Shown piece after piece: positions 52,601 to 58,600 of a DNA stretch of 64,000 bases; within the stretch, counting starts at the first letter, position 1; every line of letters starts with the position of its first letter. The position numbers are program-made. This stretch comes from Escherichia coli (GTDB lineage: Bacteria > Pseudomonadota > Gammaproteobacteria > Enterobacterales > Enterobacteriaceae), in NCBI RefSeq assembly GCF_041248615.1, contig NZ_CP158426.1; one strand, 5' to 3'.

Positions 52601-55600
52601 GCCAGAAATAGTCATCCACAGACAGGGCCCGGTCATCGGCTTTAATCAGCCACAGTACCAGGTCAAGTTCAGGCAGAATGTCACGGTACAGGGCTTCATA
52701 CTCTGCATCCCTGTCCCGGCTCTCGCCCACCCCGGGCAGGTCAGTGATAACCATGCTGTGACCATGGCCACTCAGACGGAAGCGCTGCACTTCCCGGGTG
52801 CCGGCGTGAACATCACTGACCGGGGTGACCTCCCCCTGAAACAGTGCATTACAGAGTGAGGATTTACCGGCCCCGCTTTTTCCCATAATGCCAATCACGG
52901 GTTCGTGGCTGGTGAGTTTGCGCAGATGTTCCAGGATGTGACGGGAAAGTGAGTAAGGCAGGGAGGAGAGCGGTTTTTCAATTGCCTCAATGGCATCAGA
53001 CGGATTCATACATGTATTCCCGGTGAAAAAAGACAAAACCCCGCGCACCGGAAAGGTGGCGGGGGGATTCACGGAGATAATATCTGCCTGAAATTATTTG
53101 GAATGCAGGTATATGTGGCTGATTTGTATCAGCTAATGAGTACAGGTCTGAATCTAATCTGACAGTCCGCTCTGTGCCAGGAGCGGACATTGTTTTCCAA
53201 CTATTACCTAAGCCTGCGAACCATCTCATCTTCACCCCTTAAATTCTCAATGTATCGATAACCGCTCGTAGGGCGGGTGACACATTGCGGTGCGGATAAT
53301 AGATATATGAACCCTCCAGGCGTTGGCTGTAGCATTGCAAAACTCTGATTAGCGCCCCCTGTTCTATATCATCAGACACTAATTCCTCCGGAACATAAGC
53401 CAGCCCCAGACCTAGCCTTGCGGCTTTGGCTTCCATATAACTGTCAGCAAAGGCCCATTGTCCCTGAGGCTGATGGGTGATCTTTTTACCGTCCTGATTG
53501 AGTTCCCAGGCATACAGACTGCCGTCGCCGAACTGGTAAGCGATGCAGGGATGACCTACTAAATCGGTGGGGGTTTGTGGAAATCCGTAGCGCTGAAAGT
53601 GCCCGGGCGTGCCGACAACAGCCATCTCCATATCGGGCGAAATGCGCACCGCAACCATACCGCTATCCACTTCCGAGCCCAGACGTATACCGGCATCGAA
53701 GCGCTCAGTAATAATATCGACAAACCGGCTTTCGCTGATGAGCTCCAGCCGAATATCCGGGTATCGTTGTTTAAACACCGCCAGCTTCGGCAGCAGCACT
53801 TTATCAATGGCGTGCTGGCTCGCATTAATTCGGACCGTACCCGATGGTGTATGGCGATAATGGGCCAGCGTGGCAAGCCCCATATCTAAGGCGTCAAATC
53901 CAGATTCGACGTTTCGATAGAGTAACTCGCCGGCATGGGTGAGCGATAACTTGCGCGTGGTGCGTACCAGAAGCTGCACGCCCAGTCGCTCTTCCAGCTC
54001 GCGCACTGCACGGCTAATTCCTGACTGCGCCAGGCCAAGCCTCTGCGCGGCGGCGGTAAAACTCCCTTCTCGCACGACCTGCATAAACAGATAGAGATCG
54101 TTATAGTTTTCCCGTTTCGCCATCATCCTTCCCCTGCTGCATCACAATTCAGAACAATATGTTATTAATCTTAGCATTTTTTACCCTCTAATTAGCACTA
54201 TTAATGCTAACTATAATGTGCGCGTTGCAACAAAGCACAGCAGTGTTATCCGTATGAAACCAGTATCTGGCACATTTTATGAGGGGGATTTTGATGACTG
54301 CTTTCACCCAAAAATTGACAGCCGCGATATCCACCATGCTGTTATGCGTATCATTAAGTGGAGTCACAAATATGAGTTACGCTGATACAACCAATCCGAA
54401 CGCGCCCGTTTCGCAGGTCGAGAAATGGGATAAAACTTTTGCTGAGAGCACGAAAGTTGATCACCGTAAGGTGACCTTTCCGAACCGGTACGGGATCACC
54501 TTAGTCGGGGATCTCTATATACCGAAGGATCGTGGCGATCGCAAGATGGCAGCAATTGCTGTTAGTGGCCCCTTCGGGGCGGTGAAAGAGCAATCCAGTG
54601 GCCTGTATGCGCAGACGCTGGCTGAACGGGGGTTTGTCACTCTGGCTTTTGACCCTTCATACACGGGGGAAAGCGGCGGCTACCCGCGAAACGTCGCATC
54701 TCCGGATATCAACACCGAGGATTTCAGCGCGGCGGTTGATTTCTTAGGCCTGCAAAAAGAGGTGGATCGCAACCGTATCGGGTTGCTCGGCATCTGCGGA
54801 TGGGGTGGCATGGCCTTAAACGACGCCGCGATGGACACACGTGTCAAGGCGGTGGCGAGCAGCGTGATGTATGACATGAGCCGTGCAATGGGGCATGGCG
54901 TGGGCGATGGCAAAGACCGCTATACCACTGCCGATCGTCGTGCCGTATTGCAGTATTTGAACATGCAGCGCTGGAAGGATGCTGAAAATGGCGCTTTCGC
55001 GCCAGGCGGGCATGATATTTACGTTGATGAGAAGGGCAACGTCACCGCTTCCGATCGTATTTTACCGGAAACTTTGCCAGCGAATTCTAATCCGGTATTG
55101 AAAGAGTTCTTTGATTATTACCGCATGCCGCGTGGTTTCCATGCGCGTTCGGTCAACTCAACCAGTGCCTGGAATGCAACCATGCCGCTGTCATTTATGA
55201 ATATGCCGCTGCTGAGTTACGCTAATGAAGTTACTATCCCTACACTCATCGTGACCGGTGAAAAAGCCCATTCACGCTATTTTGCTGAAGATGCCTTTAA
55301 GGCAATCGGCAGCAAAGAGAAAGAGTTAGTGATTGTCCCCGAGGCAAACCATGTTGATCTGTACGACAACGTTGCGGGTAAGATCCCATTTGCCAAATTT
55401 GAGCAATTTTTCAAGGCAAACTTAAGATAACCCGAAAGGTTTACCAGGCCACCTGTCGTAAACGGGTGGCTTTTAACTGCCTGGTGTGATGCAGAATATG
55501 CCGCATCTCCCTATATTCTCACCCAACTATTATGTCGTTATTCCCTGAATAACTTCTGACCCGATTGCGCTTGAATCTGGCTGGTTCGATATTAAGGGGG

Positions 55601-58600
55601 CTAATAATGTCCACTGTAAGTCTCAAACAATTATACGGAAAAACGCATGCATACTGGAGCGGCGTATTCGCCATGACGCTTTGCGTGTTTGTGCTGATCG
55701 CTTCTGAGTTTATGCCAGTCAGCCTGCTTACGCTCATTGCCCATGATTTGCACGTTACCGAAGGGCTGGCAGGGCAAGGAATTGCTGTCTCTGGTGCGCT
55801 GGCGGTGCTTACCAGTCTGACTATCTCCCGTATTACCGGAGACCTGAATCGAAAATATCTTCTGCTGGGGCTGACGGCCTTAATGGCCATATCGGGAATA
55901 GTTATCACCATAGCACCTGACTATCCGGTTTATATGCTGGGGAGGGCCCTGATTGGTATCGTCATTGGAGGGTTCTGGTCAATGTCGGCTGCAACCGCCA
56001 TTCGGCTCGTGCCGAAGCAGCATGTCCCCCGCGCACTGGCAATTTTTAACGGCGGAAACGCACTGGCCACCGTTGTGGCAGCGCCACTTGGTAGCTATCT
56101 GGGGACAACCATCGGCTGGCGTGGGGCCTTTTTATGTCTGGTCCCCCTTGCGATAGCTGCGTTCATCTGGCAATGGGTCAGTCTGCCTCCGATGGAAAGT
56201 GATAAAACACAAAAGCTACAGAGATCTGTGCTTCGCCTGTTCAGCGTTGCCATCGTACCAACGGGACTGCTGGCCTGCGGACTCTTCTTTATGGGACAGT
56301 TTGCTTTATTTACCTACGTGCGCCCCTTTCTGGAGAGCGTCACCAGAGTGGGACCTTCTGATCTTTCTCTGATTTTGCTCGCAATAGGTGTAGCAGGTTT
56401 TGTCGGCACAATGATCGTCTCAACATTCCTGAACACCATATTTTATAAGACCTTAATAATGATCCCGTTGCTTATGGCAGCGATTACCGGTGCGTTACTG
56501 CTGGTCGGACACCATATCTGGGCTGTTGCCGTTTTACTCAGCCTGTGGGGGCTACTTGCGACAGCTGCGCCAACGGGGTGGTGGACATGGATAGCACGCG
56601 CGTTACCCGAAGATGCAGAGACGGGGGGAGGCCTCATGGTTGCAGTGATTCAGTTATCTATTGCACTTGGTTCAACGGCTGGAGGTCTGGTATTCGACAG
56701 TCTGGGATGGAGAAGTGCTTTTGGTTTAAGTGGTTTGTTACTTCTGGGAGCGGTAGCGATGACATGTGCCACATCCCGTCAAAACAGGAAGGCGCAGTAG
56801 CGCAATCCTTTTATTTCTGGCGTACGCTCTTTAAGGCATCCGGCTGAGAGGCTAATGATCACTCCTCGCTCACAACGGACCTTCAGCTCAGCCGCTCCGG
56901 CCGCTTCATGCCATGAATGTACGCAGCCAGTCAGAATATTAAGGTGCGGATTTCAGTTCACTTGTCAGCCCAGTGATACAGGACAGTAATGACCAACAAT
57001 TTGGTATTGATACAACAAGTTGCGGCCCCGGTTCGTGGGGGAGATGAAACGACGGTAGCTGAAGTTACTGAAATGAAGAATTCAGAGAGACTGAATGATA
57101 TGCCTCACCTTTAGTGAATAGTGTAAAAACGGGAGACTCTCACCCGAGATTATCCACTCATGCTCAATGTATAATTTTCGTGCCCCTCACAGGTAAGAGC
57201 CGGATGCATTCGTTGTGTACGTTGCAGAATTGGTAACCGGGGACCCTGCAGTCTTTAACTCCGAGTCTTGTGCTGCTCATTTGCCACAAAATCCTGGTAC
57301 GCCAGCTCAATCATTTCATTCAACAGTTTTTTTGGGGGGCACCACGACTTCGGGCAATACTTTCAGGCTGTTTGTGGATTTTTCCGGACAGTTTCAGCGG
57401 AACGGAACCATCAGCACGTTCATCACGCCTTTTTTGTTGCTCCCGGGCACTTTTCAGTTCATCCACAATATAGCTGCTCTTCTCGCATTTTTGCCGATTT
57501 TAAAAATGCGAACAAAACATCCGTACATGATGTACAGATTAAACTGCCAGGGACTGGTGTCAGAAAGCCTCCGGTTAGCCTGCTCTTTCCGGAATGTGCC
57601 GGTTATGAAAAACCGGAAATTCAGTCTCTGTTGTAAGATGTACCCTCTGATACTACGTTTTCGTTTTCTCTGTGTATTTAACTCACTGTATTTATTGTCT
57701 TTTTAAGCCTGACTGATATTCTCCGGTCATAGTGTGCCGGATAGACATCCCGTAACCTTCTCATTTTTATATAAAAATACCTGCACTGTCTTCAGCGCAT
57801 CTGTCTCCTTTAAGTAAAAAATGTTTTCACGTATTGCTGTAAATTCATTTTAAATCAGTATGTTATCCTGATATTGCTGTCTCCTGGTTTGATGCGTAAT
57901 CGTTCTGCCTTTCTGGATGATTCTGGTGCTTCCGGGTGCATTCTCCTCTGCACATGCAACAGTTCGTCATCGCCACGTGCCCAAAAAGCATATAAAAACG
58001 AATCGAATCTGATCGTTTTTTCAATCGTTTTTCACAGGAATTTCGTAGGGTGTTCTCCGCTATAGCCTCCATATTTGCTGTCTTTTTCTTCATAAATCGT
58101 ATGCAATATAACCAGTCTGTCAAGACATCTTCCCTGCTGTTGAGGTGACGATCTCATTTCTGGTCTTTTCCGGGAGAGAGACGGTCAGATGAGCGAGCCG
58201 GATTTACTGCCAGAGGTACTCCCCGCGGCAGAAAATAGTGCTCCTGTTTCCGCAATCCGGGATCGGCAACGTCCCATGGTTAATGCCACTTGCAGCGTCA
58301 GGCACTGCAGGTTTACGTCGTGATCTGATTTCTTCTGCACTTATCCCGATCACGGAAGTTCCCCCTGCGCAGACATCGGTTCCTGCCGACATCTCACAAT
58401 ACCGCCAGGCTGTCATGCAGTAACACCCGCAATGCGGTCTGCGGTTTTAAGCGCACTCTCCTGTTTTCAGTGCACCGATAAGCGTTATAGAAAGTCTGGG
58501 GTGAGTTACTGAATGTCTGTTAAGTGGTGCCGTGGGTGGAGACTGCTTACTTTTCCACAGCAACTGCAGTCATTCAGGATGCTCAGGAGAGAATATGTCA

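What the first reader, a model, noticed from the sequence alone, without database searches (positions are those of the whole stretch)
53239..56800. LysR regulator with perfect TTAGCA-N7-TGCTAA box controlling a divergent secreted hydrolase-MFS transporter pair
This is a compact regulator/enzyme/transporter module inside island DNA. The dyad attagcactattaatgctaa at 54191 in the 150-bp divergent promoter is a textbook LysR-type site. The substrate is unknown; a secreted dienelactone-hydrolase-like esterase plus an MFS importer suggests catabolism of an aromatic or lactone/ester compound.
Basis: partly seen in the sequence, partly recalled or inferred. Interest (0 to 1): 0.4.

Follow-up and report, generated by a model that had tools for sequence, protein, structure and literature searches.

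The report
LysR-controlled exported hydrolase and efflux cassette
This is a real but ordinary mobile three-gene cassette (a LysR regulator, an exported cysteine-type esterase-like hydrolase and an efflux-type membrane transporter) whose conserved operator is genuine, whose substrate is still unknown, and which looks more like an inducible detoxification or export module than a nutrient-uptake pathway.

Summary
The perfect dyad TTAGCA-N7-TGCTAA lies at 54192-54210 between a LysR gene (53239-54123, minus strand) and an alpha/beta-hydrolase gene (54294-55430), followed by an MFS gene (55607-56800).

A perfect dyad alone is weak evidence (P about 0.05 in this spacer). Phylogenetic footprinting makes it convincing: in 14 enterobacterial loci the arms and an adjacent TATAAT are near-invariant while the spacer drifts.

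The interpretation needs correcting in three places.
- The MFS protein is orthologous to Pseudomonas aeruginosa OpdE (61% identity) and closest to the exporters NepI and SotB, so it is not importer-like.
- A conserved intrinsic terminator, supported by covariation, separates the hydrolase and MFS genes.
- The dyad overlaps the -35/spacer region of the likely promoter rather than lying at -65, and its symmetric N11 pair is G/C rather than T/A.

The hydrolase belongs to the PA2218 (PDB 2HDW)/YcjY family. It has a Cys nucleophile and a Sec signal peptide, so it is exported to the periplasm.

The three genes are linked across Proteobacteria, sometimes in a different order (PA2220-PA2219-PA2218). 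The cassette is a 4.2-kb indel in E. coli islands, is plasmid-borne elsewhere, and is uncharacterised. It is a new member of a known kind, of low to moderate interest.

The parts
53239..54123 (-). LysR-type transcriptional regulator gene, 294 aa from the ATG at 54123. An upstream in-frame ATG at 54126 is absent in orthologues.
   Evidence: Pfam HTH_1 (84 bits) and LysR_substrate (125 bits). Nearest NCBIfam model is YafC at 197 bits, below its 470 cutoff. Nearest solved structures are CrgA 3HHG and AphB. RefSeq WP_001119031.
54153..54176 (.). Upstream conserved block AACAAT.T..TAT.AATC.TAGCA, ending in a third invariant TTAGCA half-site (54171-54176). That half-site lies 21 bp from the left arm of the dyad, in the same orientation. 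The block reads as a perfect TGCTA-N7-TAGCA in two species.
   Evidence: Mean column identity 0.93 in 14 loci. Part of the 15-nt inverted repeat I15.
54192..54210 (.). Dyad TTAGCA-N7-TGCTAA, the probable LysR operator. The conserved core is CAGCA-N7-TGCT.
   Evidence: Unique in the window. Fixed position, conserved arms and a free spacer in 14 loci. Same 6-N7-6 geometry, with different arms, beside the orthologous LysR in Alphaproteobacteria. The recognition helix co-varies with the arms.
54212..54217 (+). TATAAT, the probable -10 element of the hydrolase promoter. No recognisable -35 is present (TAATTA at 17-bp spacing).
   Evidence: Invariant in 14 of 14 loci. It is retained 39 nt from the ATG in E. 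cloacae, where the downstream leader is deleted. The consensus scan finds no full sigma-70 promoter in the spacer, as expected for an activator-dependent promoter. The start site has not been mapped.
54218..54293 (+). Moderately conserved 5' leader containing AAAGCACAGCAG, with the Shine-Dalgarno sequence GAGGGGG at 54281-54287.
   Evidence: Mean identity 0.80. No Rfam match. Folding is no better than shuffles, z = +0.29.
54294..55430 (+). Exported Cys-nucleophile alpha/beta hydrolase of the PA2218/YcjY family, 378 aa. Signal peptide covers residues 1-30 (54294-54383, predicted cleavage SYA/D). Cys168 codon at 54795-54797, His353 codon at 55350-55352, probable acid Glu323.
   Evidence: E = 2e-121 to PDB 2HDW (PA2218) and 1e-40 to YcjY 5XB6. 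G-I-C-G-W-G elbow, with Cys in 15 of 17 diverse family members and HxDLYD nearly invariant. AF2 model has pLDDT 83, with C168 at the strand-turn-helix elbow. Fold neighbours are thioesterases and esterases.
55446..55474 (+). Intrinsic terminator after the hydrolase gene: an 11-bp GC-rich stem, 5-nt loop and U-tract.
   Evidence: Centroid structure -17.3 kcal/mol. Present in all enterobacterial loci examined. Four of 11 pairs keep pairing through changes on both sides.
55537..55553 (.). Palindrome GTTATTC-N3-GAATAAC upstream of the MFS gene, a possible separate operator or promoter element.
   Evidence: Conserved as CGTTATTC-N3-GAATAACG in the five long-spacer loci (window, K. michiganensis, Rahnella, Hafnia, a MAG). 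Absent from the short-spacer alleles. Not followed up.
55607..56800 (+). MFS transporter, 397 aa, an OpdE orthologue of the DHA1/NepI-SotB efflux type.
   Evidence: Pfam MFS_1 at 136 bits. NepI 276 bits, SotB-type 165, Cmx 135. SotB is the nearest solved structure. 61% identical over full length to P. aeruginosa PA2219/OpdE.
53105..57280 (.). Approximate extent of the inserted cassette relative to E. coli genomes that lack it.
   Evidence: In ATCC 11775 the YeeP-like GTPase gene is followed directly by an intact 383-aa hypothetical gene. The window matches up to 53104 and again from 57281.

Best explanation
This is a horizontally mobile, LysR-controlled accessory cassette.

Regulation. The LysR protein binds the conserved dyad (core CAGCA-N7-TGCT), probably together with a third TTAGCA half-site 21 bp away. 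The dyad abuts an invariant TATAAT that lacks a -35 element. Occupancy therefore most likely sets transcription of the hydrolase gene in response to a small-molecule inducer: activation at an activator-dependent promoter, or repression that the inducer relieves. It probably autoregulates lysR as well.

Products. The hydrolase is exported to the periplasm. It is a Cys-His-acid alpha/beta hydrolase of the PA2218/YcjY family, acting on an ester, thioester or lactone-type bond. The downstream transporter is an OpdE/NepI-type MFS exporter. It is expressed by read-through of a conserved attenuating terminator and/or from its own promoter.

Function. Together they most plausibly form an inducible envelope detoxification or efflux module for an unidentified compound, not an uptake and catabolism pathway.

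Shown here: gene identities, the conserved operator, the terminator, three-gene linkage across Proteobacteria, and mobility.
Inferred: that the LysR protein is what binds the dyad, the direction of regulation, the direction of transport, and the chemistry and role.
For: - Domain and family assignments.
- Operator footprint in 14 loci.
- Same 6-N7-6 geometry beside the orthologous LysR in four Alphaproteobacteria (TAATCG-N7-CGATTA), and a recognition helix that is constant within each operator type and different between types.
- Three-gene linkage kept in Enterobacterales, Psychrobacter, Vogesella, Luteimonas and Acinetobacter. It is kept with rearranged order in Sphingomonas, Novosphingobium, Bosea, Brevundimonas, Paracoccus, P. 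aeruginosa (PA2220/PA2219/PA2218) and Laribacter.
- Transporter orthology to OpdE and stronger similarity to exporters than to symporters.
- Cys nucleophile conserved in 15 of 17 family members, and N-terminal signal peptides or lipoboxes in most.
- Elsewhere the hydrolase's neighbours are cupin-CMD fusions, acetyltransferases, aldo-keto reductases, SDRs, flavodoxin-like proteins and AraC/HxlR regulators, not catabolic operons.
- The closest solved LTTR, CrgA, controls a divergent quinone reductase and responds to a lactone electrophile.
Against: - No experimental data exist for any member. The O157 orthologues ECs_0309-0311 are absent from the searchable literature.
- The predicted operator position, with its centre near -23, is not the canonical LTTR regulatory-site position of -65, and the start sites are unmapped.
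- Transport direction cannot be read from sequence. A periplasmic hydrolase followed by an importer of the product would also fit the gene content.
- The terminator means the MFS gene may not be in the LysR regulon in Enterobacterales.
- Several enterobacterial loci and Aeromonas have LysR plus hydrolase without the MFS gene.
- In most other phyla the hydrolase stands without either partner.
Confidence: 0.5

Rival explanations
1. One reading: a catabolic module. The exported hydrolase cleaves an aromatic ester or lactone outside the cytoplasm, the MFS protein imports the product, and LysR induces both in response to substrate.
For: Periplasmic hydrolysis followed by uptake is a common logic. 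LTTRs often control aromatic catabolism. The fold neighbours include feruloyl and chlorogenic-acid esterases. The three-gene linkage is compatible with this model.
Against: The MFS protein scores far higher against exporters (NepI 276 bits, SotB-type 165, Cmx 135) than against aromatic-acid or sialate symporters (33-38 bits). Its nearest solved structure is an efflux transporter. No downstream catabolic enzymes lie in or next to the cassette in any of five genera, and the flanks differ everywhere. A terminator separates the two genes. Some loci lack the MFS gene.
Confidence: 0.2
2. An endogenous-metabolite or envelope-homeostasis module. The MFS protein exports a cell-made compound, and the periplasmic hydrolase processes or recycles it. 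This would parallel YcjY in the PgrR peptidoglycan-recycling regulon, or OpdE's effect on OprD porin expression in Pseudomonas.
For: YcjY, the nearest named E. coli relative, is divergent from the LysR regulator PgrR/YcjZ and is listed in its regulon. Disrupting opdE changes imipenem resistance in P. aeruginosa. NepI-type pumps export endogenous nucleosides (NCBIfam name).
Against: The cassette is accessory: 102 plus 912 of 5426 E. coli genomes. It is plasmid-borne elsewhere and deletable in P. aeruginosa, which fits a niche-specific function better than housekeeping. YcjY is only about 32% identical and lacks a signal peptide.
Confidence: 0.15
3. The three genes are neighbours by descent only, and the dyad is a chance palindrome or the site of an unrelated factor.
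For: Perfect 6-N7-6 dyads are common (26 in the window) and have P of 0.05-0.19 in a spacer of this size. The symmetric N11 pair is not T/A. The sixth-position symmetry is not conserved.
Against: Arms and position are conserved across 14 diverged loci while the spacer is free. Linkage is retained through gene-order rearrangement across proteobacterial classes. Operator type tracks the LysR recognition helix.
Confidence: 0.05

Closest known systems
P. aeruginosa PA2220 (LysR) / PA2219 opdE (MFS) / PA2218 (hydrolase, PDB 2HDW)
   Same: All three proteins are orthologous: hydrolase E = 2e-121 with Foldseek identity 57-58%, MFS 61% identity, LysR 43% identity. LysR is divergent from the two structural genes, and the unit is dispensable (a 4150-bp fragment is missing in one strain).
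   Different: The gene order is LysR / MFS / hydrolase rather than LysR / hydrolase / MFS. PA2218 has a lipobox (LVGC), whereas this protein has a signal-peptidase-I type site. The operator sequence differs. Only a phenotype is on record: opdE disruption raises imipenem resistance. There is no biochemistry.
E. coli K-12 ycjY - pgrR (ycjZ)
   Same: An alpha/beta hydrolase of the same family, with the same GxCxG elbow, is divergently transcribed from a LysR regulator that controls it.
   Different: YcjY is cytoplasmic, 306 aa and only about 32% identical. It sits in an operon with murein-peptide genes, and no MFS gene is present.
Canonical LTTR divergent promoters (BenM/CatM ATAC-N7-GTAT, CbnR, CrgA-mdaB)
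   Same: A divergent lysR-target arrangement. The interrupted dyad has N7 between 4-6 bp arms. There is an additional half-site two helical turns away. The target promoter lacks a -35 element.
   Different: The symmetric N11 pair is G...C rather than T...A. The most symmetric site abuts the -10 element (centre about -23) instead of lying near -65, and the weaker site is on the lysR side. Start sites are unmapped.
Dienelactone hydrolase (ClcD-type, Pfam DLH) and UilS lactonase
   Same: The alpha/beta fold and, for DLH, a Cys nucleophile in the elbow. Weak profile hits: DLH 21.6 bits, UilS model 66.9 bits.
   Different: Far below the UilS cutoff of 400 bits. Only marginal for DLH (cutoff 21, and no individual stretch passes). 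UilS is cytoplasmic. This protein is 378 aa with a cap insertion and is exported. It is not a member of either family.
NepI / SotB efflux pumps
   Same: 12-TM MFS proteins of the same clade. These are the best-scoring characterised relatives.
   Different: Below the equivalog cutoffs (276 against 584 bits). The substrate is unknown.

Membership tests
LysR-type transcriptional regulators (LTTR) | N-terminal wHTH (HTH_1) plus a C-terminal LysR substrate-binding domain, about 300 aa | tested here: met
   PF00126 at 84 bits and PF03466 at 125 bits, 294-295 aa
LysR-type transcriptional regulators (LTTR) | Divergently transcribed from a target gene, with a dyad operator in the shared spacer | tested here: met
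   170-bp spacer. The dyad is conserved in 14 loci.
LysR-type transcriptional regulators (LTTR) | Operator carries T-N11-A at the symmetric position of the dyad | tested here: not met
   In TTAGCA-N7-TGCTAA the pair separated by 11 nt is G...C. The arm-N7-arm geometry equals ATAC-N7-GTAT. Alphaproteobacterial orthologues (TAATCG-N7-CGATTA) do satisfy T-N11-A.
LysR-type transcriptional regulators (LTTR) | High-symmetry regulatory site near -65, and activation site near -35 of the target promoter | tested here: inconclusive
   With the invariant TATAAT taken as the -10 element, the dyad centre is about -23 and the upstream block about -56. Start sites are not mapped.
YafC equivalog (NCBIfam NF040888) | Score at or above the curated cutoff of 470 bits | tested here: not met
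   197 bits
PA2218/YcjY alpha/beta-hydrolase family | Full-length homology to PA2218, a G-x-C-x-G elbow and the HxDLYD motif | tested here: met
   E = 2e-121 over residues 9-376. Cys in 15 of 17 members; D355, Y357 and D358 invariant and H353 nearly invariant. Foldseek TM 0.79/0.93 to 2HDW.
Dienelactone hydrolase (Pfam PF01738) | Gathering-threshold match and a Cys-His-Asp triad | tested here: inconclusive
   21.6 bits against a cutoff of 21, and no single stretch passes. Cys and His are present. The acid is probably Glu323, inferred from the model topology.
UilS quorum-quenching lactonase (NF047920) | Score at or above 400 bits | tested here: not met
   66.9 bits, N-terminal half only
Sec-exported (periplasmic) protein | N-terminal positive n-region, hydrophobic h-region and an AxA-type cleavage site | tested here: met
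   MTAFTQKLTAAISTMLLCVSLSGVTNMSYA/DTT read directly. The MSYA motif is conserved in enterobacterial orthologues and lipoboxes occur in others. AF2 gives a low-confidence N-terminal helix followed by a disordered linker. No dedicated signal-peptide predictor was available.
MFS efflux pumps (DHA1 / NepI-SotB clade) | MFS_1 fold, with best similarity to characterised exporters | tested here: met
   MFS_1 136 bits. NepI 276, SotB-type 165 and Cmx 135 bits, against symporters below 40 bits. SotB structures are the top hits.
MFS efflux pumps (DHA1 / NepI-SotB clade) | Demonstrated export of a substrate | not testable with these tools
   Needs transport or MIC assays
NepI equivalog (NF007578) | Score at or above 584 bits | tested here: not met
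   275.6 bits
Rho-independent terminator | GC-rich hairpin followed by a U-tract, conserved with compensatory changes | tested here: met
   (4 of 11 pairs changed on both sides)
Genomic-island / mobile accessory cassette | Presence/absence polymorphism at a fixed site, different flanks in different hosts, and plasmid copies | tested here: met
   102 of 5426 E. coli genomes carry this allele. It is an indel relative to ATCC 11775. A second allele lies at yagP-paoD in 912 genomes. Flanks are unrelated in five genera. Plasmid copies exist.

The most novel reading that the evidence does not exclude
The PA2218-type exported cysteine hydrolase, the OpdE-type exporter and their LysR sensor could form a dedicated, widely transferred envelope defence against one specific class of natural electrophilic esters or lactones. 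Alternatively they could modulate porin or carbapenem susceptibility, as opdE does in Pseudomonas. The hydrolase's 50-60% identity across Proteobacteria, Bacteroidota, Firmicutes, Melainabacteria and a methanogen would then reflect recent cross-phylum spread under strong selection. The LysR/operator pair would be a ready-made biosensor for that compound.
Probability: 0.12. Interest if true: 0.55.

Novelty: new member of a known kind. Interest (0 to 1): 0.25.

Why it matters
The cassette is carried by about a fifth of complete E. coli genomes in two allelic forms, including O157:H7 as ECs_0309-0311, and by plasmids of Klebsiella, Salmonella, Pantoea and Kosakonia. No member has a known substrate, although one orthologue's crystal structure has been available since 2006. 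The only phenotype on record for an orthologue, opdE, concerns imipenem resistance. Defining the inducer and substrate would annotate thousands of genes at once, and the conserved operator gives a clean handle for reporter screens. In itself the finding is an ordinary LysR/enzyme/transporter unit and does not challenge current understanding.

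Tried and rejected
- A full sigma-70 promoter in the spacer: none at the scan threshold. Relaxed scans gave only weak candidates. A lysR promoter could not be assigned; the consensus TATAAA on the minus strand is degenerate (TCTGAA) in this allele.
- An alternative hydrolase promoter that would place the dyad at -65: no conserved -10 element downstream. The E. cloacae deletion also argues that TATAAT is the -10.
- A riboswitch or structured leader: no Rfam hit, and folding equals shuffles.
- 'Compensatory' symmetry of the window's T/A at arm positions 2 and 5: the right-arm position varies freely (A, C or G) among orthologues, so this was not treated as evidence.
- Further copies of the operator in the window: none.
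- Terminal repeats bounding the cassette: none convincing.
- Literature: PA2218, ycjY and the ECs tags gave no functional study. The opdE word-start search was swamped by unrelated words.
- UilS lactonase and DLH membership: rejected or inconclusive on score.
- The terminator scan tool missed the hairpin. It was recovered by folding and covariation.

Full report
**What is there.**
The window is part of an E. coli CP4-type genomic island. An IS21 element interrupts antigen 43, and a YeeP-like GTPase, AlpA and (in the identical strain D8) the kps capsule cluster lie nearby. Within it are three genes:
- a LysR-family regulator on the minus strand, 53239-54123. The upstream ATG at 54126 has no counterpart in orthologues.
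- an alpha/beta hydrolase on the plus strand, 54294-55430.
- an MFS transporter, 55607-56800.

The spacer between lysR and the hydrolase gene is 167-170 bp. It contains TTAGCACTATTAATGCTAA at 54192-54210, exactly as reported.

**Is the dyad more than chance?**
That exact 12-base pattern is unique in the window, with 0 of 100 shuffles matching. The fair null, however, is any perfect 6-N7-6 palindrome. The window contains 26 of these against about 16 expected. The probability of at least one in a shuffled copy of this spacer is 0.049, or 0.19 with spacers of 5-9. On its own the dyad is therefore only suggestive.

Conservation decides the matter. I collected the orthologous spacer from 14 Enterobacterales whose LysR is only 81-89% identical: two E. 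coli alleles, Klebsiella, Serratia, Rahnella, two Kluyvera, Hafnia, Enterobacter and others. In all of them a dyad T[C/T]AGCA-N7-TGCT[N]A sits at the same place. Its centre is 92-97 nt before the hydrolase ATG (50 nt in E. cloacae, which carries a leader deletion), and its right arm ends 1 nt before an invariant TATAAT. Mean column identity is as follows:

| Segment | Mean column identity |
|---|---|
| Left arm | 0.98 |
| Right arm | 0.88 |
| Spacer | 0.70 |
| TATAAT | 1.00 |
| lysR-proximal third of the spacer | 0.45 |

The conserved core is CAGCA-N7-TGCT. The outer symmetric position varies, so the perfect 6-bp arms are a feature of this allele only.

A second invariant block at 54153-54176 ends in a third TTAGCA, 21 bp from the left arm. 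In two species it reads as a perfect TGCTA-N7-TAGCA. It is also one arm of a 15-nt inverted repeat whose other arm is TGCTAA plus TATAAT.

**Is LysR the protein that binds it?**
This is inferred, with two lines of support.
- In four Alphaproteobacteria the orthologous LysR (41-43% identical) is flanked by a dyad of the same 6-N7-6 geometry but with different arms, TAATCG-N7-CGATTA, plus a further TAATCG half-site.
- The predicted recognition helix is constant within each operator type and different between types. It is QSG[IV]SR[AS][VI]RELE in Enterobacterales, QSTLS[HY][AT]IKQLE in Alphaproteobacteria and QSALSQ[SA]ISGLE in Pseudomonas and Laribacter.

**How textbook is the site?**
Reviews define the LTTR site as a T-N11-A dyad such as BenM's ATAC-N7-GTAT. 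They describe a high-symmetry regulatory site, normally near -65, and weaker activation sites near -35. Here the arm-N7-arm geometry matches, but the symmetric pair 11 nt apart is G...C.

The invariant TATAAT is the only credible -10 element. It survives in E. cloacae, where the downstream leader is deleted. No conserved -10 exists further downstream, and there is no -35 element. On that reading the dyad centre is near -23 and the upstream block near -56. This fits an activator-dependent promoter or an operator that blocks it, and it is not the canonical layout. Start sites need to be mapped.

**The hydrolase.**
It is a close relative of P. aeruginosa PA2218, a structural-genomics 'hypothetical protein' (PDB 2HDW, E = 2e-121). 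It is a more distant relative of E. coli YcjY (5XB6). The Foldseek comparison gives TM 0.79/0.93 to 2HDW.

The nucleophile elbow reads G-I-C-G-W-G. Cys occupies that position in 15 of 17 diverse family representatives. In the HxDLYD motif, D355, Y357 and D358 are invariant and H353 is nearly so. In the AF2 model (pLDDT 83), C168 sits at the strand-turn-helix elbow, E323 follows strand 7 and H353 follows strand 8. YcjY has the same GxCxG motif, which has been noted in the literature.

The N-terminus, MTAFTQKLTAAISTMLLCVSLSGVTNMSYA/DTT, is a Sec signal peptide. PA2218 and several others carry lipoboxes instead. The enzyme is therefore exported to the periplasm, and 'secreted' overstates this.

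Pfam gives only weak generic hits: PETase-like 34 bits and DLH 21.6 bits. The UilS lactonase model scores 67 bits against a cutoff of 400. UilS is itself a cytoplasmic AHL lactonase. After PA2218 and YcjY, the nearest solved folds are the thioesterase DcsB, GrgF, polyesterases, monoacylglycerol lipases and feruloyl or chlorogenic-acid esterases. The chemistry is thus ester, thioester or lactone hydrolysis, and the substrate remains unknown.

The family has about 450 clusters at 50% identity with E <= 1e-30. It crosses phyla at 50-60% identity.

**The transporter.**
It is a 12-TM MFS protein. Its best characterised relatives are exporters: NepI 276 bits, SotB-type sugar efflux 165 bits, Cmx 135 bits. 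Aromatic-acid and sialate symporters score 33-38 bits. The only solved relatives are SotB structures. It is 61% identical over its full length to P. aeruginosa PA2219, named OpdE. Disrupting opdE is reported to raise imipenem resistance. The 'importer' reading is not supported, although sequence alone cannot prove the direction of transport.

**Are the three genes a unit?**
The divergent LysR / hydrolase / MFS order is found, in unrelated flanking contexts, in the following:
- E. coli O55:H7 and O157:H7, between yagP and paoD (ECs_0309-0311)
- K. michiganensis, Serratia, Rahnella, Kluyvera, Hafnia and Enterobacter
- Psychrobacter, Vogesella and Luteimonas

The same three orthologues occur in the order LysR / MFS / hydrolase in Sphingomonas, Novosphingobium, Bosea, Brevundimonas, Paracoccus and P. 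aeruginosa (PA2220/PA2219/PA2218). In Laribacter a cyclophilin-like gene is inserted between them. Linkage that survives rearrangement argues for a shared function.

Three points count against a tight operon.
- A hairpin and U-tract directly after the hydrolase stop (55446-55474) is present in every enterobacterial locus and covaries, with 4 of 11 pairs changed on both sides. MFS expression must therefore come from read-through or from a separate promoter.
- The long-spacer alleles carry a conserved palindrome, CGTTATTC-N3-GAATAACG, upstream of the MFS gene (window 55537-55553), which may be a separate control element.
- Some loci lack the MFS gene.

Outside Proteobacteria the hydrolase stands without either partner. 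Its neighbours there are cupin-CMD fusions, Mac-type acetyltransferases, aldo-keto reductases, SDRs, flavodoxin-like proteins, a small exported cyclophilin-like protein and AraC/HxlR regulators. This neighbourhood is typical of small-molecule stress or detoxification genes rather than of a catabolic pathway.

**Mobility and distribution.**
- The window's allele is complete in 102 of 5426 complete E. coli genomes.
- A second allele (hydrolase 87% identical at the protein level; the lysR-hydrolase DNA about 78% identical to the window's) at a different chromosomal site is complete in 912 genomes.
- Relative to ATCC 11775 the window carries about 4.2 kb (roughly 53105-57280) inserted after the GTPase gene, with most of a neighbouring 383-aa gene lost.
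- A Kosakonia cowanii plasmid carries the cassette at 93.8% nucleotide identity. Diverged copies are on Pantoea, K. pneumoniae, E. coli and Salmonella plasmids.
- A P. aeruginosa strain lacks a 4150-bp fragment containing the three genes.

The cassette is accessory, and no functional study was found.

**Verdict.**
The finding is real. It is a well-defined, mobile, LysR-controlled cassette with a genuine conserved operator. The best-supported reading is an inducible envelope module combining a periplasmic cysteine esterase-type hydrolase with an OpdE/NepI-type exporter. The rival readings are a periplasmic-hydrolysis-plus-uptake catabolic model and a model in which an endogenous metabolite is exported and processed. 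It is a new member of a known kind, and interest is low to moderate.

Noticed in passing
window 55446-55474: A conserved intrinsic terminator lies immediately after the hydrolase stop codon. Four of 11 stem pairs covary across 10 enterobacterial loci. In the short-spacer alleles it leaves only about 25 nt before the MFS start, so MFS expression there must depend on read-through.
   Followed up: yes
window 55537-55553: The palindrome GTTATTC-N3-GAATAAC lies about 60 nt upstream of the MFS start. It is conserved as CGTTATTC-N3-GAATAACG in five long-spacer loci (window, K. michiganensis, Rahnella, Hafnia, a MAG) and absent from the short-spacer alleles. The changes are not compensatory, so it looks like a protein operator rather than an RNA element.
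   Followed up: partly
window 54164-54178 and 54203-54217: A 15-nt inverted repeat (80% complementary). TTAGCA preceded by ATTAAT on one side mirrors TGCTAA followed by TATAAT on the other. This hints at a symmetric layout of half-site plus -10-like element for the two divergent promoters.
   Followed up: partly
window 54148-54153: Where most orthologous spacers read TTTATA (TATAAA on the lysR strand, a possible lysR -10 element), this allele reads TTCAGA. If that element is the lysR promoter, it is degenerate here.
   Followed up: no
window 49295-51839: The antigen 43 (Ag43/Cah) gene is interrupted. Only an N-terminal fragment (51015-51839) remains, next to an IS21 istA transposase gene (49295-50836). 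The gene is intact in the otherwise identical strain D8.
   Followed up: partly
window 56866-59200: A stretch with no long ORFs, made up of gene remnants. Positions 57281-57463 match the 3' part of a 383-aa hypothetical gene that is intact in E. coli ATCC 11775, and RefSeq annotates pseudogene fragments here in strain D8.
   Followed up: partly
loci L029-L089 (e.g. L076 Methanobacterium MAG, L033/L041/L054 Melainabacteria, L031 Veillonella, L073 Bacteroides): The hydrolase family keeps 50-60% identity across very distant phyla, including an archaeal MAG. This suggests wide horizontal transfer under strong constraint. Contamination of the MAGs was not excluded.
   Followed up: no
loci L021, L051, L061, L074, L076: A second paralogue of the same hydrolase family lies within 3.5 kb of the first in five species.
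   Followed up: no
L018, L020, L025, L039, L040, L063, L092 and others (17 loci): A small exported cyclophilin-like protein of about 170-180 aa (Pfam Cyclophil_like2 in Laribacter) recurs next to the hydrolase. In Laribacter it lies between the MFS and hydrolase genes.
   Followed up: no
L093 (E. coli O157:H7 Sakai 323657-330000): In O157:H7 the second-allele cassette (ECs_0309-0311) lies beside another divergent LysR/oxidoreductase pair (yagP-ECs_0306), at the edge of the P4-like prophage Sp2 and next to paoABCD.
   Followed up: no
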